Assembly (NCBI GenBank): GCA_045532035.1
Contig: JAZSFD010000107.1
Location: forward strand, 383 to 64,382
Direction of reading: 5' to 3'
Origin: Eubacteriales bacterium
GTDB lineage: Bacteria; Bacillota; Clostridia; Oscillospirales; CAG-382
DNA: 64,000 nucleotides
Shown: positions 19,735 through 36,322 of the stretch, one piece after another
Position numbering within the stretch: position 1 is the first letter of the stretch
How the letters are laid out: each line of letters starts with the position of its first letter
Program-made: the position numbers and the translations under genes
The notes under the pieces: generated by a model
Databases searched by the model: none
Told to the model about the DNA's origin: nothing
What the model saw: the letters and a program-made list of their open reading frames with translations, nothing else

Positions 19735-19744
19735 TGTTTTTCTC

Positions 19745-20776
19745 CTATATGGTTTTAATAACGCTGCCTCGAGCCTCAAGGAGGAATTCATCACGTTCTT
19801 CTTTGCTTCTGAAAACGAAAATTCGTCCGAGCTTTGGCGAAGGTGCTTCGTCATGGAATTCGCCTTCAAATCTTTCGGTCGTCGCTTCGGAGATGTCGAG
19901 CATAAAGTCGTGGATTCCTCTGCGCGAGCCCTTTTCTACAACAGTATCGCCAAAGCTGTCTGTAAACATACGCTTTGTGTCAAAAATTCCGAAAATTGTT
20001 CCGTTTTCACGCAGGGTGTAATCTCCGACAAAATGAGAATTTTTCATTTTATCTTCGACGAGTTTGTGTTGTTCCTTGTCATAGTGCTTTATGCTGAAGT
20101 TGTTTCCGTCCAAGTGAAGCTGAGTGAATTTTTCCGGGGTGAACTCCTGGGTTATATTGATTGTACCGGTTCTTATGTAATCCTCATTTTCATTATTCAA
20201 ATGAACATGATACCACAGACCGGAAAGATCAAACACTTTGTTTTTTTCTTTCCATTCATCAAAATCTTTGCTGCCCGACTGAATGGGAGTAACTCTTGAC
20301 CATCCGATACATTTTGAAAAATTGTATGTGTTGAAGAATTGACCAAGAATTTTTCCGATGGTAAATTCTGATGTGATTCTTCTCGGGTGAAGGATCTTTT
20401 TGCTGAATTCGATCTGTTTTTTCTGGTCATCAGACAAAAGCGAAGCGTCCTTGTCGAGGTTTTTTACAAGCTCGTCGCACATAATAACGATCATCGGCTT
20501 TTCTTTTGAGGACGCATAATTATATTCGCGCTCTGTCCAGGATATGCCGTTTTGATCGCATGAGCCGTAATACTCACCCATCAACATAACGAAGAAGTCG
20601 GAATCGTCAATGAGTTCTGCAATTCCGGAGAATTCGTCTCCGGTAGAAATTGTGAAATGCTCCATTCCGATCGGCATGATGCGAAAATCGAGCAAATGGT
20701 TTATTACTTCACTTCGCTCATCGCGCAGACTTTCAAAAGCTGAAGAAATAAAGGCGGTATATACTTTTTTGACCAT
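19745..20776 (-). CDS. DUF4062-domain protein with an uncharacterised beta-rich C-terminal half
   Basis: The N-terminus VYTAFISSAFESLRDERSEVINHLLDFRIMPIGMEHF fits the DUF4062 signature as I recall it (vFISSTf.DL..eR..v...i...g..Pv.mE.F). aa ~185-343 carry no motif I recognise. The gene starts 13 nt after the stop of the 1811-aa gene, with an AAGGAA RBS. Confidence 0.6.
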   Translation of the reverse strand: MVKKVYTAFISSAFESLRDERSEVINHLLDFRIMPIGMEHFTISTGDEFSGIAELIDDSDFFVMLMGEYYGSCDQNGISWTEREYNYASSKEKPMIVIMCDELVKNLDKDASLLSDDQKKQIEFSKKILHPRRITSEFTIGKILGQFFNTYNFSKCIGWSRVTPIQSGSKDFDEWKEKNKVFDLSGLWYHVHLNNENEDYIRTGTINITQEFTPEKFTQLHLDGNNFSIKHYDKEQHKLVEDKMKNSHFVGDYTLRENGTIFGIFDTKRMFTDSFGDTVVEKGSRRGIHDFMLDISEATTERFEGEFHDEAPSPKLGRIFVFRSKEERDEFLLEARGSVIKTI

Positions 20777-20789
20777 TTTTTGTTCCTTA

Positions 20790-23700
20790 TCAATTGAGAT
20801 AAATATGAAGAATATTTAGCTCCTCGTTTGTCCGATGCAAAATACTGCTCGGTTTCTTTTTAAGATCGGAATTTGCTATGATATCAAAGAAGCCTTGCTT
20901 TTCAATAAGGCGGTCTTTGAAAAGACGCAGCATTTCGGGGGAGGAGAGCTTGAACGAAACGCTCTTTGCTCCTGCGTTCAGCTTTGCCGTCAAAAGCTTA
21001 TTTACCTGCTTTGCATCATATTCTTTGAAGAAAAGCTTGCTTCTGACAAAATAGTTGCAGGAGGTGGCGGTGCATTCGGGATAAAGCTGAGCATCGCTGA
21101 TATTTCTAGATCTGAGAAGCTCTTGCATTGTGATACAGAAATAATCATATGTCATGTCTTTTCCGCCGTCTTTTCGGGAGTCTGTGTTGCTCCTGTCATC
21201 CCAGGTGACATCCACATAATAGTAGTTGCCCTCAAGCTTGACGATATTCCATGCGTGCCACTCGCCGTCGTTGCACTGTCCTTTTACAAATGCACATTCG
21301 ATGCCAAGGCGGTTCATAAGATATTGGAAAGCCTTTGCATAGCCTGCGCAGACAGCTTTCTTTTCGACAAAAACGCCAAAGATAGAGCGGAGATTGTCAG
21401 GTTTCTTGTCGCTGTGGACATCTTGCTCCTGTTCTTCAAGTCCCAATGAGTCATAGTCGATAAGATCAACTATGTTCTCATGCGCAAGAAGTGCAACAGT
21501 GTAGTCGCTCATCGAAACATTTATGCCCTTGAAGAAGGGTTTGACTGCCGATTCGATCTGTTTTTTCCTGCGGGAGACCTCGGATTTTGTCATGATATAG
21601 TTCAAAATGACATTTGTGACTGTGCCGTAGCTGTCATAATGGGTCTGCGCGTAGGTGCGTGCTGTCCAGAAAATGTCGGGATTGTCTCTGATGACGATTT
21701 CCACAAGCTCGCCGATTCTCTCCTTGCTGACCGATCTTACGGGAGGACCCATTTCTGTTTTGAGCTCCATGATTGCCTGATAGATCTGATCATAGACCTC
21801 TTTTTCGTCAGCCGACAGACGGTTGTACCAGAATCTTGGTATGTTGTCGGGAGTACGCTCGGCGATTATCATATCCGGATCTTCCGGTTCGGGCTCGGGA
21901 ATCTCGGGCTCTTCGGGAGCCTCGGGGTCGCGGAGCTTGGTTCTCTTCTGTTTAAGCTCGCTTCCGCAAAGCAGAGCAAAGCTGTCTGTTGTGTTTTCGG
22001 CCGAAAGCAGCTTTTTCAGCTCGTCAAGTCCCGGACTTTGTGCATAGAGCTCTGAAAGAGCATCTGCCTCATTGGTATAATTGAGCGCGTAAAGCACCTG
22101 CATTTCAACATAGTTGGGATGAGCCTTGAAGATATCCGAGCCGTCGTTTACGATATTCTTTTCCTGCCACAGCTCTGTGATAAGTCTTGCGATGACTCCT
22201 GCTGCCGACACTGCGGGCAAACCGAACTCGACATAAACAGAGTTTGTCGCGTGATTGCAATAGCCGATGGGAAGCTCAGGTCCTGTTTTGTTGAATCTTG
22301 AAATAAGATCCTTTGTGGAAACAAAATCAATGCTGATATCCTTGGGGAAGCTATTGGGAACCTCAGTGCTTTCAAGGATGCTGTCACGCACAGAATCAAA
22401 GAGTTTTTCAAGCCCCTCAAAGGTATTGACAGAGCTTTCGATGCAGCTGTGACAAATGACTCTTCCATCCTCAAGAAGCTGTCCCTCATTGTGCTTTATT
22501 GCTTTGTGGCAGAAGAAGCAGGTGTTTGCATCCTTCTTTCTGACAAGCTCAGACCTTTCGATCTCATGTCTGAACTGCCTGAGAAGTACCTCCAGCTGTG
22601 TGATATCAAATATGTCGGGACACTCGGAATAACCAAAGTTGAGATAGTTGAAATCCTTGCCTGCGGGAGAGGTTGCCCATGCGAGAAAATCTGCAACAAC
22701 ATGAAGAAGATTTGTTACAACGATGCCCTCGCCGTCGATAAGAGTTTCGATAACTCCGTTGCTCGGCTCGGTATCCTCGATGATGGCAAATCTGATGCGT
22801 TTTGATTTTTCGGAGGCGTTCTGCTCTTCGCGAGCGGGTTCCTTGGGTGTTTCTGTCTGTGATTCGTCCTGATCGGCATCTGCAGCAACACCGGAGGCTT
22901 CGTCGGAAATGTCAGCTTCTTCGGACGGGATTTCGGGTTGAATTGTGTCGGAGGCCTTTGATTCCTCGGTCTCTTTAGCCTTTGCAGCTTCTTTTTCTTC
23001 CGCTGAAGCGCTTTCTTCAAGGATGATTGTGGGATAGAGATCGCGGATTGCCGAATGCTCCGAGAAGAACTCTTCTTCGTTTACATCATCAAAGAGGGGA
23101 CACACCGAAATACATCTGTACTGATGAGGGAACAGAGTCTTCATCATCTCGTTGAGTATGACAGAAAGGGTGTATGTAAGCTTGGGATTACTGTCAGCCT
23201 TCATATCAAGCGTGACAACAAGCATTTTTGATTTGATGTTTCTTCTGAGCTTTTCAAGAAGCTCGGGATTTGAACGCAGATTGATGTATTTTGCAAAATT
23301 GGTTTTTGCAAGGTCTACATTCTGAACCGCTTTTTCGATGGAATAATAACCGACGGTATCAACGGTTATATCTGCATTAACAAGCTCAAAGCCGACATGG
23401 TAAACAATGCTGTCCTTTGCTCTGAAATCAGGGCCGAAGGTTCTCAGGGTGACGGGGTTTTTGACGTTATATATTCTTGTCTGGATATAATCCATGGGAA
23501 TATTAACGCTTGGACCTGTGTCATCAAGGAACAGTGTTCCGTTTTTGATCGAGATGTCCTTGATGGTATAAGGACGGTTGTTTCTTGTAATGATCTGACC
23601 GGGAATGAAATGCTGTGTGATCTTATTCCTGAAGATCGAAAGATATTCAACGCTTTGAGTGTTGACATATTCGAGTCTGACGGTTTTTGTGGATTCAAGA

Positions 23701-26225
23701 AGCTTCTTGAAAAGACCGTTGGAATCCTCGAAGCGTACATATGTTACTGTTTCAAGGCGGGAATTGAGGAACTTTCTGAGGTTATAGCGGGGCTGATAAT
23801 CCTCGATGGGACCGAAGGCTGTTTCGTAGCAAAGGCGCACACATTTGTCAAGATCCTCACGGCTTTCGCTGAAGCAGTCTTTTTCTTCGCATTTGAGCTT
23901 GTCGCCGAGCAATTCGTAGGCGCGCTTGAGGAAAACGCCCTTTTCCATTCCGTTCACAGCGTCACAAAGAAGAATGATGACGCCTGCTTTGCTGGGATCG
24001 GCGTGTTCGCACATGGTCTCACCGATAAGCTCGAAACGGGAAACGTAATTCTGAGCGCGCGCGGTGAAATAGTCTCTCAGAAGATACGGCTTGCTGATAA
24101 CGTGCAGAACCGAAGAGCTTCTTCCCGAATATCTGGAATAATTGTAGATGGCGTTCGGCAAATCGAAAGCGTCATCCGAAACGATGACATATCCTGTATT
24201 TCCGTCGGAAATGTCACAGCTGTTCATGCAAAGTCCGGGGATCTCGTTCAACTGGCTGTTGTATACCGCTGTCTCTGAAATCAGGTTTATGTTTGAAACT
24301 CCGTCATCGCTGGCATCCTTTGAAAGCTGGACTTCGAGAGCCACCTGATTGGCGCCGTTATCGACATAAAGTGCCGAGGATATTCCCGTGTGCCAGACAA
24401 AAACATCATTTTTGGAGGACAGACCGAAGGAATTGAAGGTTTCAAGAGGTTCGTCACCAAGGTTGAAAAACTGTCTGATGCTGTTGTCGATGGCGTGAAT
24501 GTGACCGTTTGAAAGAAAACGGTATCTTACTCTTTTTGCGGTTTTTGAATTGAATTCGGGATCGTTCACTTGTGATTTGTTGCAAAGAGAGGAGTATCTT
24601 TCCAGCTTTTTTGCAATTATCAGGCAGTAATAATTGTTTGCGGAGAGCACCTTGTCGGTGTTGGGAATAAATACATCCACAAGCTCGTTGAAGAAGCTCT
24701 TTCCGTAGACAAACAGATCCTTTTCGAGGAATTGCGCAGGAGTCAGCATGAGTATATCAGGCTTTTCTCCTTTGTACATATCGTCAAAGGTGCTGATCCT
24801 CCACAGCGCCTGATTTGTTTTTGTGATATGGAGGAAGCCTTCTTTGAGGTATTCAGAGGCTTTTTTGATCTCCTTTTCGTCTTCGCAGATGAAAAGGACA
24901 CGTGTTCCGAATGAGAGCTTCACAAAAAGATAATGAATAATGTATTCACCAAGCGATGAATAGAGGGAGGAGTCGAAAAGAATGTGCTTGTCGTCAAGCA
25001 TTGACTCGATTCCCTGCATATAAGCGTTGTTGATGATCTTTTTGTTGGCTCTGATGGCTTTTGCCATGTTCTGAACCGCCTGCTTTTTCTCGTTGAGATT
25101 ATATGAGCTTTTTGAGGCGGAGGAGTCGGTGTTGAAGGTTTTGATGCGATAGCTTTGACCATATTTGTCAAGAAGCTGCTTGCGGTGGCTGTCGACATCC
25201 TGCTTTTCTTCTTCATAAACACCCTTGGCAAACGAAAGAGCGGGATCCTTCGCTTCGTCGGGCTTTTTATATTCTCCGTCAATAAAGCGGAGTATCTCAA
25301 AAAGCAGGATCAAAGAGATCATGGGGTAGAGATAAGTGTTGCTGACAAGCCACTGGGCAACCGAGTAGAAGCCGGGAAATTTTGTAAATGAGAAAAATAC
25401 AGGGAGAAGCATGGCAAGGCATATGATAAGATATACCACAGCCAGAAGAAACAGAAAATATTTCAGTTCATTTGCCCATCTGAAGGTAGAGGTCTTGACA
25501 TATCTGAAGTTTTCCTGCTTGTTATAAAACAGACCGATGAACTTGAACCACAGCTCCTTAACAAGCTCACCGAGAGTGACAGCTTTGTCTTCCTCGTATA
25601 CTTTTTCGGAGGTGACGGTATCTGTTATTTCTTCGGTGTCGGGATTCTCGGCGATATAATCGGAGGAGATGACCTTGACATTTTTGTTTTTTGATACATT
25701 CTTAAAAACCAGAACCGAATCACGGCGAAGCAGCTTCAAACGCTTTAAGAAAGAATCGCGGTTCTTTTTTTCTCCTGCGTTTTGAGGGGGAGAGGTAATC
25801 TTTTTTCTTTTTTTGTCGGAGGTATCCTCAGAAGAGTTCTTGCTGTTTTTGAAAAATGTCGAATCAAGAAACGCCCGTAAGATCTTTTTTGCCACCAGGA
25901 AGATATATGCGATTATGAGGTTGGAGAGAATAATTACAGCAACACTCACGGTATATACCGCTCTTGCGGGAATCAAACCTATAAGCCACGATAAGAGACC
26001 GAGCTTCAGCAGCCAGTCGAGCAGATTTTTCAACAGGGGGGCGAAGCACAAAAGAAGCAGTCCGAGGAAAATTGTTTCGAGCACAAAGCAGATGTTTCTC
26101 CATCTGCGGCTTTTTGTGTAGCCCACAGATGCCAGAGAGAAAGAAAACTTGTGCGGAAAAAAGGGAAGACACAAAAGGGCGAGAATAACAATGATCGCAA
26201 GTATTTTAAGCGGCAACAGGATCAT
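20790..26225 (-). CDS. 1811-aa polytopic membrane protein with Zn-ribbon, acidic disordered segment and C-terminal transglutaminase-like (papain-fold Cys-His-Asp) domain
   Basis: Hydrophobic helices at aa 1-120 (nt ~25865-26225) and aa ~255-315 (nt ~25290-25470). An acidic low-complexity stretch lies at nt ~22800-23020 (EESASAEEKEAAKAKETEESKASD..DADQDESQTE). CxxC..CxxC motif (CFFCHK..ICHSC) at nt 22440-22525. PE-rich linker (PEAPEEPEIPEPEPEDPD) at nt ~21870-21935. The transglutaminase core is AVCAGYAKAFQYLMNRLGIECAFVKG..EWHAWNIVKLEGNYYYVDVTWDD, with the Cys codon at 21348-21350. The GGAGG RBS and ATG overlap the upstream stop (ATGA). Confidence 0.7.
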   Translation of the reverse strand: MILLPLKILAIIVILALLCLPFFPHKFSFSLASVGYTKSRRWRNICFVLETIFLGLLLLCFAPLLKNLLDWLLKLGLLSWLIGLIPARAVYTVSVAVIILSNLIIAYIFLVAKKILRAFLDSTFFKNSKNSSEDTSDKKRKKITSPPQNAGEKKNRDSFLKRLKLLRRDSVLVFKNVSKNKNVKVISSDYIAENPDTEEITDTVTSEKVYEEDKAVTLGELVKELWFKFIGLFYNKQENFRYVKTSTFRWANELKYFLFLLAVVYLIICLAMLLPVFFSFTKFPGFYSVAQWLVSNTYLYPMISLILLFEILRFIDGEYKKPDEAKDPALSFAKGVYEEEKQDVDSHRKQLLDKYGQSYRIKTFNTDSSASKSSYNLNEKKQAVQNMAKAIRANKKIINNAYMQGIESMLDDKHILFDSSLYSSLGEYIIHYLFVKLSFGTRVLFICEDEKEIKKASEYLKEGFLHITKTNQALWRISTFDDMYKGEKPDILMLTPAQFLEKDLFVYGKSFFNELVDVFIPNTDKVLSANNYYCLIIAKKLERYSSLCNKSQVNDPEFNSKTAKRVRYRFLSNGHIHAIDNSIRQFFNLGDEPLETFNSFGLSSKNDVFVWHTGISSALYVDNGANQVALEVQLSKDASDDGVSNINLISETAVYNSQLNEIPGLCMNSCDISDGNTGYVIVSDDAFDLPNAIYNYSRYSGRSSSVLHVISKPYLLRDYFTARAQNYVSRFELIGETMCEHADPSKAGVIILLCDAVNGMEKGVFLKRAYELLGDKLKCEEKDCFSESREDLDKCVRLCYETAFGPIEDYQPRYNLRKFLNSRLETVTYVRFEDSNGLFKKLLESTKTVRLEYVNTQSVEYLSIFRNKITQHFIPGQIITRNNRPYTIKDISIKNGTLFLDDTGPSVNIPMDYIQTRIYNVKNPVTLRTFGPDFRAKDSIVYHVGFELVNADITVDTVGYYSIEKAVQNVDLAKTNFAKYINLRSNPELLEKLRRNIKSKMLVVTLDMKADSNPKLTYTLSVILNEMMKTLFPHQYRCISVCPLFDDVNEEEFFSEHSAIRDLYPTIILEESASAEEKEAAKAKETEESKASDTIQPEIPSEEADISDEASGVAADADQDESQTETPKEPAREEQNASEKSKRIRFAIIEDTEPSNGVIETLIDGEGIVVTNLLHVVADFLAWATSPAGKDFNYLNFGYSECPDIFDITQLEVLLRQFRHEIERSELVRKKDANTCFFCHKAIKHNEGQLLEDGRVICHSCIESSVNTFEGLEKLFDSVRDSILESTEVPNSFPKDISIDFVSTKDLISRFNKTGPELPIGYCNHATNSVYVEFGLPAVSAAGVIARLITELWQEKNIVNDGSDIFKAHPNYVEMQVLYALNYTNEADALSELYAQSPGLDELKKLLSAENTTDSFALLCGSELKQKRTKLRDPEAPEEPEIPEPEPEDPDMIIAERTPDNIPRFWYNRLSADEKEVYDQIYQAIMELKTEMGPPVRSVSKERIGELVEIVIRDNPDIFWTARTYAQTHYDSYGTVTNVILNYIMTKSEVSRRKKQIESAVKPFFKGINVSMSDYTVALLAHENIVDLIDYDSLGLEEQEQDVHSDKKPDNLRSIFGVFVEKKAVCAGYAKAFQYLMNRLGIECAFVKGQCNDGEWHAWNIVKLEGNYYYVDVTWDDRSNTDSRKDGGKDMTYDYFCITMQELLRSRNISDAQLYPECTATSCNYFVRSKLFFKEYDAKQVNKLLTAKLNAGAKSVSFKLSSPEMLRLFKDRLIEKQGFFDIIANSDLKKKPSSILHRTNEELNILHIYLN

Positions 26226-28417: not shown

Positions 28418-28457
28418 TCTGTAAAAACTCCTTTGATCGTGTGATTATTTTAATGGA

Positions 28458-31400: not shown

Positions 31401-32291
31401 TGTGTACAGATGTGAATAAGCTATATTTGCCATAGCCTTGTAGTATTCGGGAAGACCGCCCAGAATCTTGGAAAGATAGTTGAGCTTGTCGATGAAGTAA
31501 AGGATGTCGTAGGGCTTTTCGCCGTATCTGCCTTCGGAATCCTTTTCAAAAAGCTTGCCTTCACAGTCTGTGCTGATCTCGATGTCGAGATCGAGCTTTC
31601 CGCCGTATGCCGCGGTTGTGTCGGGGCCGCAGATGAGGTTGAAGGCGTTGAGCTCTCTGATGACGGCATATGCGTTTGCATAAAGGTTGGGGAGCATTTG
31701 AGCGGTAACAACGTTCTTGTAAAGATCGGGGCAGGCAAAAAGTCCGTGAACAACGGCATCAACACCTCTGTCTCTGAAGAACTTTTTGACATAGAGGGCA
31801 ACCTGAATGAATATACCCGAGCCTGTGCCGCCTGCGATGGAAGAGGCAATGAGAATTACAGGAGGCTTATCTTCGGCTGTGGTTGCTGTGGGGTCAAGCA
31901 TGAGGGAATCTTCAAGAATGCGTTCAAGTTCGTTTTTAGAATCCTTCAAGAAATTTGCAAGGCAGAGTCTTGACTTGAGTCTGCACTGCGAAGCACCGCC
32001 GAAAAGAGTGGAGGCAAAGAAGTTGCCTTCGTTGGGAGTGTTGGGGCACCATTCTCCTACATCTCCGCCGACGGAATTGTAATAATCGCCGACAGTGCCG
32101 TCTCCGCTGAGGCAGATCTTATTAACACCGAGCTGAGAAAGATGGTTGAGCTCATCCTGGTCGGTATCTATGGCAATACATGCCACATCGCTTTCAAAGC
32201 CCTTTCCGCGCTCATCAATGAGTCTTTTGTAGAGCTCTGTGATGATTTTGCCTCCGCTTCCGCCGAGACCGATAAAGTAATTGTGTTTCAT
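28458..32291 (-). CDS. Giant tubulin/FtsZ-superfamily GTPase (Pfam 'Tubulin_2'-like) with a ~950-aa C-terminal extension
   Basis: The N-terminus FIGLGGSGGKI (nt 32247-32270) resembles the T1 glycine loop. ILIASSIAGGTGSGIF carries the tubulin/FtsZ signature [SAG]GGTG[SAT]G (AGGTGSG at nt 31815-31835, checked codon by codon). AAGGAG RBS 7 nt before the ATG. Confidence 0.75.
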   Translation of the reverse strand: MKHNYFIGLGGSGGKIITELYKRLIDERGKGFESDVACIAIDTDQDELNHLSQLGVNKICLSGDGTVGDYYNSVGGDVGEWCPNTPNEGNFFASTLFGGASQCRLKSRLCLANFLKDSKNELERILEDSLMLDPTATTAEDKPPVILIASSIAGGTGSGIFIQVALYVKKFFRDRGVDAVVHGLFACPDLYKNVVTAQMLPNLYANAYAVIRELNAFNLICGPDTTAAYGGKLDLDIEISTDCEGKLFEKDSEGRYGEKPYDILYFIDKLNYLSKILGGLPEYYKAMANIAYSHLYTDISGEVWSNESNEMHAHTLAPSAIYGSAGAASMKYPHDDIVNYFAYRALKDSLDSVWNAIDDEWKNYRKEKDMVAQSSGLPAYVPEPGERANHYINTFEKRVKTTGVSKNEFSFLAPSVIRNSENASVALMKKIKSLAASEIAGDDRINKAKDEHIGDIGGAKASILSKINNSSGKDDDSNIFWAISDIDENIDDYCEKGLNFAIDQSIAFSNKILCEDCSMWKFYDKSDIGIINGLLVDDKTGDYIHPVAARYLLYKFKLAIDEKAEEIISPVDTAADDADDFYAYLMTMVVEKQRKVLRASESEEGISNKKILENRMNRWFGKKATVKEVSSYFSTLDRKLNEANDVFVDALMYFSLVKVSERLQKLITEYELFFDKLDEFATKTQGAITTSEKKHELARGNVYVCASSRIKREMYEDCGSLINTKTGSTASSISKALFEAMRIRSTGSAKKLGVDQKATGIDGLFNTVSSIVSDSIHENKEVQDKINMNVFQALLYEYSLTSPEFKDDEATYSKDDAARNRLDQFISGKFKTLVQMAAPFLSYDIADNYSGMFDVEDENGDVYYKKPPVSNFYRYLSFNPVNKDRVEELTGDSVFSFFDKMSSMLPKDTQRQTVNLNCVNSENVDPYTVLCYSTVHCLQPYQIKPFDEINGGVYFEHYSKRIAEMEALQCYSMSPHLDKRWHKHGVMPYINVKKEEERRLDLAKAFLFAITYGKIGYDIDGSDARIVFGDPNRDQDYKILIHKGKTIPYFKLNRVMNWFADQESLIESYSSQFDARIGIEIEKLSKYSENVGEYKTGITNYAAILNQFKRNILRNIEIDSAKNGKAKAAPKKKDPMNLIEFAYNVHTSEETEHDKDYGELLIETLCNIIHRYAAAPYNADAIAHKDTGNEAYRCYQDVYTHIANKFMEEYVATLSKQMKAEAKEEPKKNNFGRSTEDLDEDPITDNGAKVFDFEASEAVQKDKRFVWASALFNKYFG

Positions 32292-32326
32292 GTTTTGTCT
32301 CCTTTATTTATTCTCAAATTAAGAAT

Positions 32327-35300
32327 TCAGATTTGATTGCCGTTTCTGCGGAAGAACACGATTGCAAGCTGCTTTTCCTGAACCTCGCAGATAAATTCGT
32401 TTTCAAGGTTGATGCTGATGCCTTCCTTGGGATCGAAGCGGGTTTGGCGACCGATGAGCCTGCCTTCTTCAAAGGTATCTCTGGTGTCAAAGGCAAGGAT
32501 TCTGTCCAAATATGTTTGATTCAGTGCGCCTGTGTTGAAGACATAATCTTCGGGAGTGATATCGATAGTGGGTTTGCGCTCTATCGTCCAATGCGGATAG
32601 GTTCTTTCAAGACCAAAGGCGCGGGGGGCTATAAGATCTGCCGAATGTTCAAAAACACATACTCTTTTGCGCATACTCTTGAAAGGAAGCAGCACTTGAT
32701 GGGGGAGAACATACGGACGCTTTTTTATTACATTTACATCAATAAGGTTCCAGTCCCCGACAGTGTTCTTTCTGAAGGTTGCCCTGTAGAGCTTTCCCTT
32801 TATAAATCTTATTCGAGTGATGCAGCAGAATGTGAAATAAGCAACGAAAGCTATCACACCGAGAACCACCCAGAATATGATGAGAACTAAGGGGTTGGTG
32901 TTGACATGCACTATTGCGCTTACCTGCTGATCGTTGAAGGAGAGAACTATTTCTGTATCTCCGTCTTTGACAAGAAACAGATTTGCCCATTCCCAAAGGC
33001 TTGGGGAAATGAATGTCCAGCCGTTGTAGCAGGGTCTGACAAACAGATATCCGGTTTCGTCACCGGCGTCAAGAACTTTCACATCAAGTCCGATGTGCTT
33101 TTTGTTTTTGTTGAGATAAACGTTGCAATCGAGAGCCTCAAGCTCAGCCTTTGACAAAACTCTTGTATCTCTTGAAATTTCAAATTCAACACCGTCGGTG
33201 TTTTTTGTAAGCTCCACATCAACGACGGTTATGCCATCTTTTCTGACTGAAACCGAATGCTTGGGAGCAAGCACCGAAACTTCTGCTTTGCAGGGTTCTG
33301 CCGCGATCTGCTCAATAGAGGCGGTTATCGTGTGTGTCTTTTTGACATCTATGCCTGTTATTGCCGTGTAAGGAACGGCGCCTGCTGCATTTTCGTCATA
33401 TTGCGGGGTGAAAGACTTTCCGACGGGAAGATTTCCGTCATACACCGTTTCGATCTTGCCGGGAAGCTCGCCGTTATCGATCACAAGCCCGTTTGCAATT
33501 TCTGTGTCCCATTTTGCAAGAGGACCATAGTTTTCGCCGCCCGAATAATCTGCAAGAAGTGTGTAGACGATCTTCTTCTGATTCTTTTTGAGAGAGTCAA
33601 GGTTGAGATCTTCGGAAATCTCGGATTCTGCAGAGATCTTGTAGGCAGCTTTGCTTATGGCGATGGTGAATGCTTCCGATTGGATTGTACTGCCGTTCAC
33701 GCTTACCGTGGCGTAGATTTTGTGTTCTTTTCCAAGAATGTTTGCGGGGGAGTCCGAGCCGAGGTTTGGAACGAAGCTTAATGAGCCGTCGCTTTCCTTT
33801 ACGATCTCACCGGGAAGACCCGCGGTCTCGATCTTGAGTGTTTCATATATTTCCTTGTCGATCTCGGCAAGAGGACCGTAATTCTCGCCGCCCTCATAGT
33901 CGGCAAGGAGAGTAAAGGTCATTTTGTCCTTGTTACTCTTAAGAGTGTCAACAGAGAAGGTCTCAGGGAGTGAATTGTCAAGTTTTATCATGTATGAGGA
34001 GCTGCTGATAAATACCGTGATCTCTTCGGAGTCAAGAGTGGTATCTCCGACCTTGGCTGTGGCGGAAAGCTTGTGCTCCTTGTTGAGAATGTCCTCGGTC
34101 TTTAGTTTTTTGTCTTTTGGATCAAAAGAGGGGACAAAGCTTACCGAATCCTTTTCTTTTGTGAGCTTGCCGGGGAGTGTGGTGCTGTTCAGTTCAATGC
34201 TGAAGGTGCCCTTGTCGCACGCCGACTCGCTTATCGGAATAAACTTTCCGTCATTTTCGTAATCGGCAACGATTGTATAAGTGATGGCTTTTTTGTTTGA
34301 CTCAAGCTCAATGATCGAAAGCTGTGTGCTCAAAAGGTCTTTTTCGGTCTCGATTTTGTATTGAGGCTTTATTACCTCAACAGTTCTTGTCAGAATCGAT
34401 TGACCGTCAAAACAGACCGAAACCGAAAAGCTTTGGGGAAGTGAATTGAAATCCTGAGAAGCTTTTGGAGTATATATGATGCTTTTACCGCTTGTTTTCA
34501 CTTCGGAGAGCTCCGAGCATTTTCCGCTGTTGAAGCCGTTTGCTCCCTCGATCTTTATTTCAAGGTCATCAAGAATTCCGCTGTAAAGGTTCGAAAAAGG
34601 AAATTCAATTCCGTTTTTGCCGTTTGCCCAGTCATTAAAAAGGGGCTTTGTGAGGGAAATCTTTGCGGAATCTCCCGTCAGCGCCGAGGTGTCGATTACG
34701 GGTCTTCCTTTTATCTTTCCCAGCGATTCTTTCTGAACGAAAGGCTGATAACCGTCAAGGGTGGCTTCAATCTTCAGCTCTTTCCCCTCATAGTCTTTTT
34801 GCATGGTTACGACATATGAGCCGTTTTCGGTGTCTGCGTTTGTGACGGCTTTACCGTTGATATACAGGGTGTACTCGGGATTGAGAACATCGGAGGACAC
34901 CTTTGCGCCGAGCTTTCCGTTTTCTTCGATCTCAAAAAGTCCGCATTTGATGGCGAAAGAATCGCCTTCGTGGAGCTTATCCTTTATGTCCGAAAAGCTC
35001 AGAGGATCGGGATCGTCGCCCACATAGTATTCACATCCGAGCTTTACCGCAGGTTCCACAAGCACGACCACATTGCTCTTGTCGATGCCGTATGCCGAAA
35101 GATCGATGCTGTAATTTCCCTTGGGGAGGGGGGAGGCTGTGTCTTTGTTGGCTATAAGTGAAACGAAACCGTAGGGACGGTTTTCAGGAACTTTGTGCTC
35201 GACGGTGAGTATGTAATTCTTTGTTTCTTTAGGGGAGGGCTCCGGACAGTCGAGATTAAAACTTTTAACTTCGAAGGAAATGCCTTTCTGACTGCAGGTT

Positions 35301-36145
35301 ACAGGGAGCGCGATATCTCCGAAAGGTGAGTTTTCCTTCTGGACAAGAAGCGAAATGTTGTGCGCTGGATATTCAAGATCAAAGGTAAGCGTTCCGTTGC
35401 TGACAGCAGTCTTTGCGGTGATGTCAGTGCGTCCCATGATGGTTGCAGAGATATCTTTAACTGAGCTGATGATTTCTTTGCTCGACTTGGCTTTGCTCAC
35501 TGAGATTCCGTCAAGACCGCTTGCCGAAACGCTGTCTCCCATCATAAAAAAGATGGTTTCAAAGTCTGCACCATTGATGAATTCTTTTACTTTGCCGTCA
35601 GCCCAAAGCAGTTCGCTTGAAAAAGTCTTATCCTCTGTGTGGAAGGTGGTGTTTTGATCCAACTGACCATCTGCCATTACCACAAGGTAATATTTTGCAT
35701 TGTTTTTGTAAGTTCTATATGCTTCTTCAAGTTTTTTATATCCGGTTTCGAGTTCATTGTCTGTTCCACCTTCGACCAGCAGCTGTTTGAGTTTTTCTAT
35801 TTCGTTCTTCTTTTGTGTGCCAAGGTTAACTTTTCCGCTTTTGATGCCGGTTTTGTTTTTTTCTTGTTCTTCATCGTTCAGATATGTTACATAAAGAACA
35901 TCTTCTTCACCCATCATGGCGATAAAAGCCTGCATTGCATAGCTTGAGTAAGCCCATCTGAAGTCTGCATCTGCATCATTTGAATTTTTTCCCAGTCCTG
36001 CCATACTTGCAGAGTCATCAAACACAATTGATACGATTCTCGGTATATGCTTCGGAGAGGCTGATTCGTCAGCGGATACCGAAACGAATGTGGCGGAGGT
36101 TATGAGTATTAGCAATGACAGCAATGTCAAAAATATCTTTTTCAT
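32327..36145 (-). CDS. Secreted, C-terminally membrane-anchored von Willebrand factor A (vWA) protein with Ig-like repeats and a cytoplasmic tail
   Basis: ATG 36145 with AGGAG upstream. Signal peptide MKKIFLTLLSLLILITSATFVSVSA|DES. Complete MIDAS set: DDSAS (nt 36005-36019), GGTD, MADG. A beta-rich region follows with three ~120-aa tandem repeats. A single TM helix LVLIIFWVVLGVIAFVAYFTFCCI (nt ~32813-32896) is followed by the basic stretch RIRFIKGKLYRATFRK and a ~160-aa tail. Confidence 0.8.
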   Translation of the reverse strand: MKKIFLTLLSLLILITSATFVSVSADESASPKHIPRIVSIVFDDSASMAGLGKNSNDADADFRWAYSSYAMQAFIAMMGEEDVLYVTYLNDEEQEKNKTGIKSGKVNLGTQKKNEIEKLKQLLVEGGTDNELETGYKKLEEAYRTYKNNAKYYLVVMADGQLDQNTTFHTEDKTFSSELLWADGKVKEFINGADFETIFFMMGDSVSASGLDGISVSKAKSSKEIISSVKDISATIMGRTDITAKTAVSNGTLTFDLEYPAHNISLLVQKENSPFGDIALPVTCSQKGISFEVKSFNLDCPEPSPKETKNYILTVEHKVPENRPYGFVSLIANKDTASPLPKGNYSIDLSAYGIDKSNVVVLVEPAVKLGCEYYVGDDPDPLSFSDIKDKLHEGDSFAIKCGLFEIEENGKLGAKVSSDVLNPEYTLYINGKAVTNADTENGSYVVTMQKDYEGKELKIEATLDGYQPFVQKESLGKIKGRPVIDTSALTGDSAKISLTKPLFNDWANGKNGIEFPFSNLYSGILDDLEIKIEGANGFNSGKCSELSEVKTSGKSIIYTPKASQDFNSLPQSFSVSVCFDGQSILTRTVEVIKPQYKIETEKDLLSTQLSIIELESNKKAITYTIVADYENDGKFIPISESACDKGTFSIELNSTTLPGKLTKEKDSVSFVPSFDPKDKKLKTEDILNKEHKLSATAKVGDTTLDSEEITVFISSSSYMIKLDNSLPETFSVDTLKSNKDKMTFTLLADYEGGENYGPLAEIDKEIYETLKIETAGLPGEIVKESDGSLSFVPNLGSDSPANILGKEHKIYATVSVNGSTIQSEAFTIAISKAAYKISAESEISEDLNLDSLKKNQKKIVYTLLADYSGGENYGPLAKWDTEIANGLVIDNGELPGKIETVYDGNLPVGKSFTPQYDENAAGAVPYTAITGIDVKKTHTITASIEQIAAEPCKAEVSVLAPKHSVSVRKDGITVVDVELTKNTDGVEFEISRDTRVLSKAELEALDCNVYLNKNKKHIGLDVKVLDAGDETGYLFVRPCYNGWTFISPSLWEWANLFLVKDGDTEIVLSFNDQQVSAIVHVNTNPLVLIIFWVVLGVIAFVAYFTFCCITRIRFIKGKLYRATFRKNTVGDWNLIDVNVIKKRPYVLPHQVLLPFKSMRKRVCVFEHSADLIAPRAFGLERTYPHWTIERKPTIDITPEDYVFNTGALNQTYLDRILAFDTRDTFEEGRLIGRQTRFDPKEGISINLENEFICEVQEKQLAIVFFRRNGNQI
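33266..34366 (-). repeat. Three tandem ~117-127-aa protein repeats inside the vWA gene
   Basis: Repeat units start at YKIETEKD.., YMIKLDNS.. and YKISAESE... They share L(K/E)SN.K.(I/M)T(Y/F)T(I/L)(V/L)ADY.(G/N)(G/D).NYGPLA, LPG(K/E), SF(V/T)P and KEHK(L/I).AT. The units have diverged at the DNA level. Confidence 0.8.
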
Positions 36146-36201
36146 ATTAGCTCCTGAAATATGTAGTAGATGTGTATTGAATATAAAAATCCCTAATATA
36201 C

Positions 36202-36230
36202 ATTCTATCACTTGTGTCACATTTTGTCAA
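36202..36230 (-). promoter_or_regulatory. Near-consensus SigA promoter of the vWA/tubulin-like operon
   Basis: On the minus strand: TTGACA (36225-36230), a 17-nt spacer, TAGAAT (36202-36207). It lies ~55 nt upstream of ATG 36145 and immediately downstream of the terminator of the preceding operon. Confidence 0.75.
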
Positions 36231-36282
36231 TACTTGCGTTCATATTATTATATAAAAATATTATATAATTGCAAAAAATGTA

Positions 36283-36322
36283 CCGCACCGAGCGGATTTG
36301 ACTCGATGCGGCAGTGAAAAAT
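36283..36322 (-). terminator. Rho-independent terminator after the asparaginase-like gene
   Basis: On the minus strand CCGCAUCGAG pairs with CUCGGUGCGG (10 bp including one G-U) at 36293-36302 / 36312-36321, followed by ACAUUUUUUG. It lies 33 nt after the stop at 36355. Confidence 0.7.

What the first reader, a model, noticed from the sequence alone, without database searches (positions are those of the whole stretch)
19745..36230. Operon of ~17 kb: surface vWA receptor + giant tubulin/FtsZ-like GTPase + membrane protein + 1811-aa transglutaminase giant + DUF4062, a candidate undescribed conflict or membrane-remodelling system
Seen in the sequence: five minus-strand genes are packed with gaps of 35, 40, -4 (ATGA overlap) and 13 nt, and each has an AGGAG-type RBS. 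They follow a near-consensus TTGACA-17-TAGAAT promoter (36202-36230), which itself follows the terminator of the upstream operon. No terminator appears until the 19-bp hairpin at 18912-18956. The only recognisable NTPase is the tubulin-like protein; I found no Walker A motif in any of the five proteins. Predicted topology joins an extracytoplasmic MIDAS-competent vWA ectodomain to cytoplasmic partners. Those partners are a tubulin-like GTPase, two further membrane proteins (one ending in a papain-fold transglutaminase-like Cys-His-Asp domain) and a DUF4062 protein. Established knowledge: as I recall, Makarova and Koonin (2010) noted computationally that FtsZ/tubulin-like families co-occur with vWA proteins in a possible membrane-remodelling system, and I know of no experimentally defined function for it. 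vWA, transglutaminase-like peptidases, DUF4062 and TIR modules also recur in comparative-genomic surveys of prokaryotic conflict systems. Inference: the system may be an outside-in sensor. In this model, ligand or phage contact at the vWA ectodomain switches a polymerising GTPase, which recruits or activates the membrane and transglutaminase/DUF4062 effectors. This five-gene combination matches no named defence system that I know.
Basis: partly seen in the sequence, partly recalled or inferred. Interest (0 to 1): 0.92.

Follow-up and report, generated by a model that had tools for sequence, protein, structure and literature searches.

The report
Tubulin-like membrane sensor-protease gene cassette
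Four of the five genes are one copy of a widespread but never-tested bacterial cassette (surface receptor, tubulin-like GTPase, two membrane proteins, one ending in a protease-like domain) first predicted by computer in 2010, while the fifth gene belongs with its downstream neighbour to a separate NAD-degrading immune-type module.

Summary
Five tightly packed minus-strand genes follow a near-consensus promoter, and the tubulin-like, transglutaminase-like, DUF4062 and (more weakly) vWA assignments all stand.

The interpretation needs three corrections.

1. The conserved unit is four genes, not five: vWA receptor, FtsZl1 tubulin-like GTPase, a hairpin membrane protein and a giant polytopic protein. 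This order recurs in about 50 fetched loci from at least five phyla. Makarova & Koonin's 2010 supplement already lists it as vWA-FtsZl1-'B5'-'B12'.

2. DUF4062 is not a partner of the cassette. DUF4062 was shown in 2026 to be a TIR-like NADase, and the pair resembles the two-gene Vesta defence system.

3. The giant protein is more than a transglutaminase. Its cytoplasmic core is predicted to fold like MrfA/YprA helicases but has no ATP-binding motifs in any relative. Most relatives carry an intact HExxH zincin after a zinc ribbon. This clade has lost that motif and gained the Cys-His-Asp transglutaminase-like module instead.

I read the cassette as an envelope-anchored sensor, GTPase scaffold and protease machine, possibly for defence. 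Its function remains untested.

The parts
36202..36230 (-). Sigma-70-type promoter TTGACA-17-TAGAAT with an extended -10 TG, driving the cassette
   Evidence: Best promoter match in 18000-37500, 11 of 12. Sequence read.
36281..36313 (-). Terminator of the upstream TIR-TIR-asparaginase operon. It marks the 5' boundary of the unit.
   Evidence: 13-bp stem with 7 GC pairs followed by a T run.
32327..36145 (-). g1: a 1272-aa type I membrane protein. In order it has a signal peptide, an extracellular vWA domain with a complete MIDAS (D43-x-S45-x-S47, T128, D159), a beta-rich stalk of variable length, a TM helix at 1086-1104, and a ~168-aa conserved cytoplasmic tail.
   Evidence: MIDAS residues are invariant or nearly invariant across 43 homologues. 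The top PDB profile hits are all vWA proteins, at E 0.018-0.07. VWA_2 exceeds its threshold in one homologue and is sub-threshold in three others. Topology. The Pfam match in the window protein itself is below detection.
28458..32291 (-). g2: a 1277-aa FtsZl1-family tubulin/FtsZ-like GTPase. The GTP-binding domain spans about residues 1-350, with T1 GLGGSGG and T4 AGGTGSG. A ~900-aa mostly helical C-terminal region follows.
   Evidence: Pfam Tubulin_2 E 9e-39. Invariant G8, G10, G11, G13, G154, G155, T156, G157, G159. The AF2 model has pLDDT 81, and the 50 listed Foldseek PDB hits (43 at E <= 0.001) are all CetZ, FtsZ, tubulin or TubZ.
26222..28417 (-). g3: a 731-aa membrane protein (Makarova & Koonin family 'B5'). 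It has a large cytoplasmic N-domain, a TM hairpin at 533-551 and 566-584, and a cytoplasmic C-terminal helical tail. No recognisable domain.
   Evidence: No Pfam, NCBIfam, PADLOC or PDB match. Topology. A same-architecture ORF occupies this position in every four-gene locus checked. Its stop overlaps the g4 start (ATGA).
20790..26225 (-). g4: an 1811-aa polytopic membrane protein (family 'B12' plus an added module). It has 5-6 TM helices in residues 1-315, then an MrfA/YprA-like helicase fold without ATPase motifs (~330-1070), an acidic linker, a CxxC...CxxC zinc ribbon (C1236, C1239, C1258, C1261), an eroded zincin remnant (RLITELWQ in place of HELTHxWQ, ~1347), and a transglutaminase-like Cys1626-His1657-Asp module (~1470-1811).
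   Evidence: Transglut_core above threshold. PDB 9crn_A matches at E 2.7e-38. Foldseek finds MrfA 6znp_A at E 1.3e-18, TM 0.56. No P-loop or DExH in the helicase-like region of any of 42 + 40 relatives. HExxH versus TGase pattern. TM predictions.
20878..20905 (-). Candidate internal promoter (TTGAAA-16-TATCAT with TG) inside the 3' end of g4, about 100 nt upstream of g5. It could give g5-g6 their own transcript.
   Evidence: 10 of 12 match in the consensus scan. Consensus match only; not tested.
19745..20776 (-). g5: a 343-aa protein with an N-terminal DUF4062/NIR TIR-like NADase domain and a conserved C-terminal domain of unknown function. It is adjacent to the cassette but not a conserved part of it.
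   Evidence: Pfam DUF4062 E 6e-20. Invariant E39 and E84 across 24 homologues. More than 150 homologue clusters. Found alone with the IMPase-family gene in L086-L088. NADase function from preprints.
18967..19734 (-). g6: a 255-aa inositol-monophosphatase-family phosphatase. It is the constant partner of g5 and lies in the same transcription unit.
   Evidence: Pfam Inositol_P E 4.4e-50. It starts 10 nt after the g5 stop with an AGGAGA site. It follows DUF4062 in L008, L055, L086, L087, L088 and L089.
18912..18956 (.). Bidirectional terminator hairpin between g6 and the convergent TIR-TPR gene.
   Evidence: 19-bp perfect stem, 7-nt loop, -26.3 kcal/mol, z = -7.65.

Best explanation
**What it is (shown).** Window 20790-36230 holds one self-contained four-gene cassette of the FtsZl1 class: vWA receptor, FtsZl1 tubulin-like GTPase, 'B5' hairpin membrane protein and 'B12' giant polytopic protein. 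It was inherited or moved as a unit. In this lineage it sits directly upstream of an unrelated two-gene module, DUF4062/NIR NADase plus an IMPase-family phosphatase, and is probably co-transcribed with it.

**How it most likely works (inferred).** All four proteins meet at the cytoplasmic membrane.
1. g1 presents a metal-dependent (MIDAS) ligand-binding vWA domain on a long, variable stalk outside the cell and a conserved tail inside.
2. A ligand or perturbation at the envelope is relayed through that tail to the FtsZl1 GTPase. The GTPase acts as a GTP-gated switch or scaffold; whether it polymerises is unknown.
3. g3 and g4 are organised by that scaffold. The g4 helicase-shaped, ATPase-dead core and zinc ribbon act as a binding or sensing platform.
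4. The output is proteolysis or protein modification by the g4 C-terminal peptidase-type domain. That domain is a zincin in most lineages. Here a transglutaminase-like Cys-His-Asp domain took over after the zincin motif decayed.

**Likely role.** I put envelope-level surveillance in a biological conflict (phage or other invader) at about 0.4. Non-conflict membrane or envelope roles are the main alternative.

**The g5-g6 pair.** It is most likely a Vesta-like NAD+-depleting module that merely neighbours the cassette.
For: **The four genes form one conserved unit.**
- The g1-g2-g3-g4 order holds in 6 of 6 contexts of g2 homologues at 22-69% identity.
- It also holds in about 50 of 79 loci from a species-level genome scan. 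These include Oscillospiraceae, Lachnospiraceae, Bacillaceae (Sutcliffiella, Evansella), Actinomyces, Microbacteriaceae, Desulfovibrio, Bacteroidales and Longimicrobium.
- The nearest-neighbour census found no fifth recurrent family.
- The same operons appear in the 2010 supplement.

**All four proteins are placed at the membrane.** Predicted topology puts the vWA domain outside and the g1 tail, g2, and the bulk of g3 and g4 inside.

**The GTPase is likely to bind GTP.** The T1 and T4 motifs are invariant and the predicted fold is FtsZ/tubulin-like.

**A peptidase-type domain is the likely output.**
- Among 40 family representatives, 14 have an intact HExxH without a TGase module.
- 18 have a TGase module with the HExxH lost, 1 has both, and 7 have neither.
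- Fisher p = 6e-5.
- The Cys, His and Asp of the TGase module are nearly invariant.
- Bacteroides caccae FtsZl1 is followed by a cysteine protease.

**The g4 core has a helicase-like fold.** Foldseek finds MrfA at E 1.3e-18.

**Leaning towards a conflict role.**
- Distribution is patchy and genomic contexts vary.
- YprA-family helicases are hallmarks of DISARM, Druantia and Dpd.
- The effector domain has been swapped.
- Here the cassette lies among three TIR genes and one NIR gene.
- TIR gene content differs from a 91-94% identical relative.

**g5-g6 is a separate module**.
Against: - No experiment exists for any FtsZl1 system in the searched literature, so every mechanistic step is inferred.
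- None of the five proteins matches any PADLOC model.
- Most cassettes are flanked by housekeeping genes. TIR or NIR genes are among the three nearest neighbours on either side in only 4 of 28 loci.
- In the B. cereus group a two-gene version (vWA + FtsZl1) is found throughout the group. That looks more like a core function than a defence system.
- The g2 model lacks the beta-rich C-terminal domain and T7 loop that make FtsZ and tubulin polymerisation-dependent GTPases, so filament formation is doubtful.
- The helicase similarity rests on a medium-confidence model (pLDDT 70.7) and has no sequence-level support.
- The HExxH/TGase exclusivity may reflect one or a few evolutionary events and is not corrected for phylogeny.
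- The vWA call for the window protein itself is sub-threshold by Pfam.
Confidence: 0.5

Rival explanations
1. Non-conflict membrane-remodelling or vesicle-biogenesis machine, the original Makarova & Koonin proposal. FtsZl1 polymerises on the membrane with vWA, B5 and B12 to deform or organise it as part of normal cell physiology.
For: - This is the published prediction for exactly this operon family.
- Three of the four proteins are membrane-embedded.
- The two-gene version is conserved across the B. cereus group like a core function.
- Flanks are mostly housekeeping genes, and there is no PADLOC hit.
Against: - The canonical polymerisation elements (C-terminal domain, T7 loop) are not seen (also noted).
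- Remodelling does not explain a conserved, swapped peptidase-type domain or a helicase-shaped core.
- Distribution is patchy and insertion sites vary.
- No ESCRT-, dynamin- or BAR-like partner is present.
Confidence: 0.2
2. Integrin-like adhesion or surface-sensing complex. The MIDAS vWA domain on a long stalk binds a host or matrix ligand (the source looks like a gut Oscillospiraceae). The cytoplasmic tail couples adhesion to a cytoskeletal GTPase and to regulated proteolysis, for attachment, envelope homeostasis or signalling.
For: - g1 has adhesin-like architecture: signal peptide, MIDAS vWA, repeated beta-rich modules whose number varies, a single TM helix and a conserved tail.
- It is the fastest-evolving of the four proteins (46% identity against 52-70% for the others in the same relative).
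- From my own knowledge, extracellular vWA domains in Gram-positive bacteria are typically adhesins.
Against: - The same cassette occurs in soil and marine Bacillaceae, Longimicrobium and Desulfovibrio, which share no host.
- There is no sortase signal or pilin partner.
- It does not explain the helicase-like core.
Confidence: 0.15
3. One reading: one five-gene system in which the vWA sensor switches the GTPase, which then activates both the transglutaminase and the DUF4062 effectors.
For: - g5 lies 13 nt after g4 with no terminator, so it is probably co-transcribed here.
- The same g4-g5-g6 order occurs in L008 and L089, and g5-g6 lies just upstream of g1 in L055.
- DUF4062 is a proven defence effector domain.
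Against: - DUF4062 is absent from the flanks of most cassettes, appearing in 2 of the 28 censused loci.
- It has far more close homologues than the cassette.
- In 3 of 3 sampled genomes it sits with IMPase among housekeeping genes with no cassette nearby.
- Its constant partner is g6, which the model ignored.
Confidence: 0.08
4. g5-g6 is not an immune module but an NAD(P)-turnover or regulatory pair, with an IMPase-family phosphatase acting on a phosphorylated nucleotide and an NADase. It would be vertically inherited as a housekeeping function in this Clostridia lineage.
For: - More than 150 full-length homologue clusters at 45-61% identity.
- Housekeeping flanks, including the conserved SpoVT neighbour.
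- Both domains of g5 are very highly conserved.
Against: - DUF4062 domains tested so far act in defence, and about 20% lie next to known defence genes.
- An NADase paired with a dispensable phosphatase is exactly the Vesta and Metis logic.
- Here and in L089 the pair is embedded among TIR genes whose presence varies.
Confidence: 0.3

Closest known systems
FtsZl1-vWA predicted membrane-remodelling system (Makarova & Koonin 2010, Biol Direct 5:33; PMC2875224)
   Same: - g2 is an FtsZl1/Tubulin_2 protein of the typical size and architecture, with a vWA-MIDAS gene immediately upstream.
[quoted passage not shown]
- My profiles link the window genes to such loci, for example L006 and L085.
   Different: - Here B12 is ~1750-1810 aa. 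Its HExxH is eroded to RLITELWQ, and a ~340-aa transglutaminase-like Cys-His-Asp module is appended.
- The helicase-like fold of the B12 core is not mentioned in the 2010 paper's main text (parts 1-2) or in the supplementary passages I read.
- No OmpA, protein kinase or P-loop GTPase partner is present in this variant.
YprA/MrfA (DUF1998) SF2 helicases of DNA repair and of the DISARM, Dpd, Druantia and ARMADA defence systems
   Same: The predicted structure of g4 residues 320-1500 matches B. subtilis MrfA best (E 1.3e-18, TM 0.56 over the 748-residue target), well ahead of other SF2 helicases. A four-Cys zinc module follows, as in DUF1998.
   Different: - No Walker A or DExH motif in the helicase-like region of any of about 80 family members.
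- No sequence-level similarity.
- The protein is membrane-anchored.
- No nuclease or methylase partner is present.
- The YprA survey does not mention tubulin, FtsZ or vWA contexts.
Canonical FtsZ, CetZ, TubZ and tubulin
   Same: GTP-binding Rossmann-type N-domain with T1 and T4 glycine loops. These proteins are the top structural neighbours.
   Different: - TM-scores are only 0.3-0.48.
- The model is helical after strand S6, with no beta-rich C-terminal domain or recognisable T7 loop.
- A ~900-aa extra C-terminal region is present.
- Profile searches of the PDB find no tubulin at E <= 0.1.
Vesta (VstA NIR/DUF4062 + VstB alkaline phosphatase) and Swarozyc (single DUF4062 protein), 2026 preprints
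   Same: g5 is a small DUF4062 protein with a conserved candidate catalytic Glu (E84) and an uncharacterised C-terminal domain. It is tightly and constantly coupled to a phosphatase gene.
   Different: - The phosphatase belongs to the inositol-monophosphatase family, not the alkaline phosphatases.
- The pair looks vertically conserved among housekeeping genes.
- The phenotype is untested.
MoxR AAA+ / vWA (DUF58) / transglutaminase-like membrane protein operons (e.g. B. subtilis yeaC-yeaD-yebA) and the Bat operon (recalled from memory, not tested here)
   Same: The same logic of an NTPase, a vWA-MIDAS protein and a membrane protein with a cytoplasmic transglutaminase-like domain.
   Different: The NTPase here is tubulin-like rather than AAA+. 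The vWA domain is extracellular. I ran no homology test between the transglutaminase proteins.
Envelope-anchored phage-defence systems such as Zorya and Kiwa (conceptual analogy only)
   Same: Membrane-embedded sensors coupled to cytoplasmic helicase-like or DNA-binding effectors.
   Different: No homologous components and no PADLOC match.

Membership tests
FtsZ/tubulin superfamily | Glycine-rich GTP-binding loops T1 (GxGGxG) and T4 (GGGTG[ST]G) | tested here: met
   GLGGSGG at residues 7-13 and AGGTGSG at 153-159. G8, G10, G11, G13, G154, G155, T156, G157 and G159 are invariant in 20 and in 64 homologues.
FtsZ/tubulin superfamily | FtsZ/tubulin fold of the nucleotide-binding domain | tested here: met
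   AF2 model with pLDDT 81. The 50 listed Foldseek PDB hits (43 at E <= 0.001) are all CetZ, FtsZ, tubulin or TubZ, at E 2e-6 to about 1e-3. Pfam Tubulin PF00091 scores 31.6 bits, just under its cut-off of 33.
FtsZ/tubulin superfamily | C-terminal activation domain with a T7 synergy loop, giving polymerisation-dependent GTPase activity | tested here: not met
   The model has only helices after strand S6 (residues ~280-460) and no beta-rich domain. Makarova & Koonin also could not identify T6-H7 in FtsZl1. This rests on a model, so it is a weak negative.
FtsZl1 (Pfam Tubulin_2, PF13809) | Significant match to the family profile over the whole domain | tested here: met
   E 9.4e-39, 134 bits against a cut-off of 27, profile positions 2-355 of 356.
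FtsZl1 (Pfam Tubulin_2, PF13809) | Long helical C-terminal extension (~1100-1300 aa in total) and an adjacent vWA gene | tested here: met
   The protein is 1277 aa. The vWA gene g1 lies 35 nt upstream. The same pairing holds in all loci with sequence upstream.
von Willebrand A domain | MIDAS motif DxSxS ... T ... D | tested here: met
   D43, S45 and S47 are invariant. T128 and D159 are at least 90% conserved in 43 homologues.
von Willebrand A domain | Significant profile match | tested here: inconclusive
   The window protein has no VWA hit at E <= 1. Among homologues, L081 scores 31.3 bits (cut-off 27), L030 E 8e-5, L060 E 8e-4 and L067 E 4e-3. The five best PDB hits of the family profile are all vWA proteins, but only at E 0.018-0.07. 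Makarova & Koonin assign the B. anthracis counterpart to COG2304. No structure prediction was run for g1.
Transglutaminase-like (papain-fold) superfamily, PF01841 | Profile match above the curated threshold, and a Cys-His-Asp triad | tested here: met
   29.8 bits against a cut-off of 23. The C-terminal ~320 aa match PDB 9crn_A at E 2.7e-38. C1626 and H1657 are present in all TGase-bearing members, and the Asp is nearly invariant. Catalytic activity is not testable here.
Zincin metallopeptidase (the B12 'zincin + Zn finger' of Makarova & Koonin) | HExxH zinc-binding motif | tested here: not met
   The window has RLITELWQ where relatives have HELTHxWQ. The four-Cys zinc ribbon just upstream is retained. 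The protein is homologous to B12, but this domain is predicted to be inactive.
SF2 helicase, YprA/MrfA (DUF1998) family | Two RecA-like domains plus accessory domains, with overall fold similarity | tested here: met
   Foldseek finds 6znp_A at E 1.3e-18, TMt 0.56, 966 aligned columns. Other SF2 helicases follow at 1e-7 to 1e-5. The model pLDDT is 70.7.
SF2 helicase, YprA/MrfA (DUF1998) family | Walker A (GxGKT) and Walker B/DExH ATPase motifs | tested here: not met
   Both are absent from the helicase-like region in the window protein and in all 42 + 40 relatives examined. I therefore do not file it as a helicase; it only has the shape of one.
Any named anti-phage defence system (PADLOC-DB v2) | Match of any component to a defence-system HMM | tested here: not met
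   Zero hits at E <= 0.1 for g1-g5 and none for g6.
Vesta-like NIR + phosphatase module (for g5-g6) | DUF4062/NIR domain with a conserved catalytic glutamate | tested here: met
   PF13271 E 5.6e-20. E84 (WTEREY) and E39 are invariant in 24 homologues. Which of the two is catalytic was not determined.
Vesta-like NIR + phosphatase module (for g5-g6) | Operonic partner is an alkaline phosphatase (VstB) | tested here: not met
   The partner is Inositol_P family, E 4.4e-50. It is analogous in logic to VstB but is not a member of that family.
Vesta-like NIR + phosphatase module (for g5-g6) | Phage-triggered NAD+ depletion and protection | not testable with these tools
   This needs expression and phage challenge.

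The most novel reading that the evidence does not exclude
The vWA-FtsZl1-B5-B12 cassette is a new class of envelope-anchored immune or surveillance machine.
- An extracellular MIDAS receptor detects an invader or envelope breach.
- A tubulin-superfamily GTPase acts as the switch or scaffold rather than as a cytoskeletal filament.
- An ATPase-dead YprA-like helicase module senses incoming nucleic acid at the membrane.
- A swappable peptidase domain (zincin or transglutaminase-like) executes the response.

This would be the first assigned function for FtsZl1 and the first tubulin homologue used in prokaryotic immunity.
Probability: 0.3. Interest if true: 0.85.

Novelty: new variant of a known kind. 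Interest (0 to 1): 0.6.

Why it matters
FtsZl1 is one of the most divergent branches of the tubulin/FtsZ superfamily. It has been a 'known unknown' since 2010, and I found no experimental paper on it.

This locus and its relatives sharpen the problem in three ways.

1. **A minimal unit to test.** They define a conserved, portable four-gene unit with a clear membrane topology that can be cloned and tested.

2. **A likely output.** Proteolysis or protein modification looks like the conserved output, because one peptidase-type domain has been replaced by another.

3. **A link to known immune components.** The giant B12 protein has the fold of the YprA/MrfA helicases that sit at the heart of several phage-defence systems, but with the ATPase motor removed.

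Together these turn a vague 'membrane remodelling' prediction into specific experiments: MIDAS, T4-loop and Cys1626 mutants, nucleic-acid binding, and substrate search.

Separately, the locus adds a DUF4062 (NIR) NADase paired with an IMPase-family phosphatase to the newly described NIR defence repertoire. It also corrects the idea that DUF4062 belongs to the tubulin cassette.

Tried and rejected
**Searches that found nothing**
- PADLOC and NCBIfam scans of the five proteins gave no system-level match.
- Profile searches of the PDB for g3 and g2 gave only chance-level hits.
- Literature searches for experimental work on FtsZl1, or for tubulin + vWA + transglutaminase or antiphage, found nothing relevant.

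**Ideas tested and dropped**
- I used hhalign to test whether g3 is a cryptic tubulin-like or vWA-like paralogue. It found no relationship.
- I looked for an ATP-competent ancestor of the g4 helicase-like core among 208 representative relatives. All hits are B12-type proteins, and the 40 I checked have no P-loop in the helicase-like region.
- I considered DUF4062 as the cassette's effector and rejected it on synteny.
- I considered a prophage or tRNA-linked island. No tRNA is present in the window, the cassette's G+C (0.451) is close to the rest of the window (0.465), and its identity to L089 is like that of the flanks.

**Technical limits**
As a result g3 and the g1 vWA domain were not modelled.
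- jackhmmer with the window's TIR seeds finds few other TIRs because they are so divergent, so that census is a lower bound.
- An 84-sequence alignment failed internally and was repeated with 40 sequences.

Full report
**1. The observation**

- Five minus-strand ORFs lie at 32327-36220, 28458-32291, 26222-28417, 20790-26225 and 19745-20776.
- The junctions are 35, 40, -4 and 13 nt, and each start is preceded by a Shine-Dalgarno sequence. The one before g5 is weaker (AAGGAA).
- The best promoter match in the region is TTGACA-17-TAGAAT with an extended -10 TG at 36230-36202. It sits just after a 13-bp-stem terminator at 36313-36281 that ends the upstream operon.
- This placement makes the ATG at 36145 the real start of g1, not the GTG at 36220. 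The g1 protein then begins with a signal peptide.
- The hairpin at 18912-18956 has a perfect 19-bp stem, -26.3 kcal/mol, z = -7.65. Between promoter and hairpin there are only weak intragenic terminator-like matches.
It encodes a 255-aa inositol-monophosphatase-family protein (Pfam Inositol_P, E 4e-50) and starts 10 nt after the g5 stop.

**2. Domain assignments**

*g2 (tubulin-like).*
- It matches Pfam Tubulin_2 at E 9e-39.
- It has the T1 (GLGGSGG) and T4 (AGGTGSG) loops, whose glycines are invariant in 64 homologues.
- An AlphaFold2 model of residues 1-460 has pLDDT 81. The 50 listed Foldseek hits (43 at E <= 0.001) are all CetZ, FtsZ, tubulin or TubZ.
- The TM-scores are modest. After strand S6 the model is all-helical, so the beta-rich C-terminal domain and T7 loop that drive polymerisation-coupled GTP hydrolysis are not evident. 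Makarova & Koonin noted the same for this family.

*g4 (transglutaminase-like end).*
- It matches Transglut_core above threshold.
- Its last ~320 residues match PDB 9crn_A at E 2.7e-38.
- The Cys, His and Asp are conserved.

*g5.* It is DUF4062 at E 6e-20.

*g1 (vWA).* This is the weakest assignment.
- Pfam sees nothing in the window protein.
- D43-x-S45-x-S47, T128 and D159 are invariant or nearly so in 43 homologues.
- One homologue exceeds the VWA_2 threshold and three more are close to it.
- The five best PDB hits of the family profile are all vWA proteins, at E 0.018-0.07.
- The B. anthracis counterpart is classed as COG2304 in the literature.

*Topology and motifs.*
- The hydropathy and positive-inside analysis puts the g1 vWA domain and stalk outside, with a ~168-aa tail inside.
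- It gives g3 a hairpin with both ends inside.
- It gives g4 5-6 helices followed by about 1500 cytoplasmic residues.
- There is no Walker A motif, apart from one chance-like match in the g1 ectodomain.

**3. The conserved unit is four genes**

- The 5.8-billion-protein search found about 110 homologues of g2. All are ~1150-1330 aa and come from uncultured Clostridia.
- Six contexts, at 22-69% identity to g2, all show the same order: a ~860-1270-aa g1-like gene, g2, a ~660-735-aa gene, then a ~1470-1800-aa gene.
- A scan of one genome per species found 313 relatives. I analysed the best 79 loci with profiles built from the first seven sets.
- The order g1-g2-g3-g4 holds throughout Oscillospiraceae and other Clostridia.
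- It also holds, with a diverged g3, in Sutcliffiella, Evansella, Ornithinibacillus, Actinomyces, Microbacteriaceae, Desulfovibrio, Bacteroidales, Longimicrobium and Lachnospiraceae.
- In those loci the ~2-kb 'gap' always holds a 590-790-aa ORF, with predicted TM segments about 70% of the way along (a clear hairpin in most), like g3.
- The B. cereus group has only g1-g2.
- I scanned the three nearest genes on each side of 28 cassettes, 128 genes in all. They gave 114 Pfam families, none in more than three loci, and most are metabolic or housekeeping.
- The cassette is therefore self-contained and sits in many different genomic places.

**4. It is already catalogued, as a prediction**

- Makarova & Koonin (2010) defined FtsZl1. 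They reported its association with vWA genes and lineage-specific membrane proteins, and proposed a membrane-remodelling machine.
- Their Additional file 5 lists exactly this operon in 'Bacteroides' (now Pseudoflavonifractor) capillosus: vWA 861 aa, FtsZl1 1183 aa, B5 658 aa, B12 1435 aa.
- Loci L006 and L085 in my set have almost the same gene sizes and match my profiles strongly. So g3 corresponds to B5 and g4 to B12.
- I found no experimental study of FtsZl1. A 2023 phylogenetic paper only sets the Tubulin_2 group aside as divergent.

**5. What is new about g4**

*A peptidase swap.*
- Aligning 42 relatives shows that the shorter B12 proteins outside this clade end with a CxxC...CxxC zinc ribbon followed by HELTHxWQ.
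- That region gives weak hits to several zincin families (DUF6782, DA1-like, BSP, M78).
- The long proteins of the Oscillospiraceae clade keep the ribbon but read RELTHVWQ. In the window's subclade the motif is RLITELWQ. These proteins carry the extra transglutaminase-like module.
- In an independent set of 40 representatives from the 1.84-billion-protein library the counts are as follows:

| HExxH motif | TGase module | Representatives |
|---|---|---|
| intact | absent | 14 |
| intact | present | 1 (P0276, apparently transitional) |
| lost | present | 18 |
| lost | absent | 7 |

- Fisher's test gives p = 6e-5, not corrected for phylogeny.
- I read this as replacement of one peptidase-type domain by another, which suggests that proteolysis or a related protein modification is the conserved output.
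- Makarova & Koonin's table also shows a Bacteroides caccae FtsZl1 followed by a cysteine protease.

*A helicase-shaped core without a motor.*
- An AlphaFold2 model of g4 residues 320-1500 (pLDDT 70.7) finds the DUF1998 helicase MrfA/YprA as by far its best structural match (E 1.3e-18, TM 0.56 on the target, 966 aligned columns). Hel308, Brr2, Pol-theta helicase, RecQ and Hachiman HamB follow.
- Yet neither a P-loop nor a DExH motif exists in the helicase-like region of any of about 80 relatives. No sequence method links the family to helicases.
- The core is therefore helicase-shaped but cannot be an ATPase by the usual chemistry.
[quoted passage not shown] The survey of that family does not mention tubulin, FtsZ or vWA contexts.

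**6. DUF4062 belongs to a different module**

- g5 has more than 150 full-length homologue clusters at 45-61% identity.
- In three genomes chosen only for having long contigs, it is immediately followed by an Inositol_P gene.
- In those genomes it lies among housekeeping genes: L21/L27/Obg/GreA, ValRS/FolC/sigma-F, and MetH/PurL. No cassette lies within 7 kb.
- One of the three also has SpoVT next to the pair, as in the window.
- Among cassette loci the pair appears downstream in L008 and in L089, which is 91-94% identical to the window. It appears upstream of g1 in L055.
- So the cassette sits next to a conserved g5-g6 pair here, and is probably read through into it. A 10-of-12 promoter match inside the end of g4 (20905-20878) could also serve the pair.
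- Two 2026 preprints show that DUF4062 ('NIR') is a TIR-like NADase. They show that it works in the single-gene Swarozyc and Vulcan systems, as an Avs effector, and in two-gene Vesta. Vesta is a small NIR protein with a C-terminal putative ligand-binding domain plus a dispensable alkaline phosphatase.
- g5 keeps invariant glutamates (E39, E84) and a highly conserved C-terminal domain.
- g5-g6 thus has Vesta's logic with a different phosphatase family.
- A housekeeping role in NAD(P) turnover cannot be excluded, given its vertical-looking conservation.

**7. Neighbourhood**

- The window's cassette is embedded in TIR genes.
- The upstream operon encodes a double-TIR protein (38393-39373), a TIR protein (37344-38396) and an asparaginase-domain protein (36355-37410). 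The convergent downstream gene (16741-18819) is TIR + TPR/Sel1.
- The two upstream TIR proteins hit ThsB, SAVED-TIR and SEFIR models in PADLOC.
- The close relative L089 has two additional TIR genes inserted in the same region. This is a variable, immune-type neighbourhood.
- TIR genes also flank cassettes in L002, L004, L007 and L014. Overall, though, TIR or NIR genes occur in only 4 of 28 nearest-neighbour sets.
- This is a hint of a conflict role, not proof.

**8. Mechanism**

*Shown.*
- A conserved four-gene unit.
- Predicted co-location of all four proteins at the membrane, with an extracellular MIDAS domain.
- Intact GTP-binding motifs.
- A conserved peptidase-type C-terminal domain that has been swapped.

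*Inferred.*
- Signal flows from the ectodomain through the g1 tail to the GTPase.
- The GTPase scaffolds or gates g3 and g4.
- The pseudo-helicase and zinc ribbon act as a binding platform, possibly for nucleic acid.
- The transglutaminase-like domain cleaves or modifies a target.

I put about 0.4 on a conflict or surveillance role, about 0.2 on the original membrane-remodelling idea, and about 0.15 on an adhesion-coupled, integrin-like role. Polymerisation of g2 is not supported by the model and should not be assumed.

**9. Verdict**

It is a new variant of the FtsZl1-vWA-B5-B12 system predicted in 2010, with a zincin-to-transglutaminase swap. It lies beside an independent Vesta-like NIR-phosphatase pair in a TIR-rich region of an uncultured Oscillospiraceae-type genome.

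The two observations I could not find in the literature are the MrfA/YprA-like ATPase-dead core of B12 and the mutually exclusive peptidase domains.

Noticed in passing
window 36355-39373 (-): The upstream three-gene operon encodes a 326-aa protein with two TIR_2 stretches, a 350-aa TIR_2 protein, and a 351-aa protein with an asparaginase N-terminal domain. The TIR proteins hit ThsB, SAVED-TIR and bSEFIR PADLOC models. The asparaginase-domain protein hits nothing in PADLOC. This could be an undescribed TIR-based system with an asparaginase-like partner.
   Followed up: partly
window 16741-18819 (+): A 692-aa TIR_2 + TPR/Sel1-repeat protein is convergent with the g6 end of the unit. A homologue lies downstream of the cassette in L007 (15479-17788).
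   Followed up: partly
L089 14026-14790 and 16759-19686: A relative with 91-94% nucleotide identity carries two extra TIR genes that the window lacks. One is 254 aa (TIR_2/ThsB_TIR + TM2) and the other is 975 aa (TIR_2 + TPR). Both are inserted next to AP_endonuc_2 and SpoVT, so TIR genes come and go between close strains.
   Followed up: partly
P0276 (1690 aa): This B12-family protein has both an intact HELTH zincin motif and the transglutaminase Cys/His. It may be an intermediate in the peptidase-domain replacement.
   Followed up: no
L025 1196-4609 and 4795-7632: Two FtsZl1 genes in tandem (1137 and 945 aa) lie between the vWA gene and the g3-like gene. This may be a heterodimeric variant, reminiscent of alpha/beta-tubulin.
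   Followed up: no
L027 5250-6773 and L014 2-457: Additional short ORFs with similarity to g4 (507 aa at E 8e-13; 152 aa at E 2e-8) lie just outside the cassette. They may be stand-alone transglutaminase-like paralogues.
   Followed up: no
L002 3817-6138; L004 495-5776: Upstream of g1 in two 46-69% relatives there are TIR_2 genes. In L002 one is paired with a Y_phosphatase3 gene. In L004 there is also a 960-aa protein with a faint ThsB_TIR hit. The L002 pairing repeats the 'TIR-like domain + phosphatase' pattern seen in g5-g6.
   Followed up: no
window 12212-16652: The backbone genes beside the region are UvrA (944 aa), SpoVT (180 aa) and a xylose-isomerase-like TIM-barrel protein. SpoVT indicates a spore-forming Clostridia host.
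   Followed up: no
window g1 residues ~590-960; alignment A1: The number of beta-rich stalk modules in g1 differs between close relatives. The window and L004 have about two more modules than L001 and L002. g1 is also the least conserved of the four proteins.
   Followed up: partly
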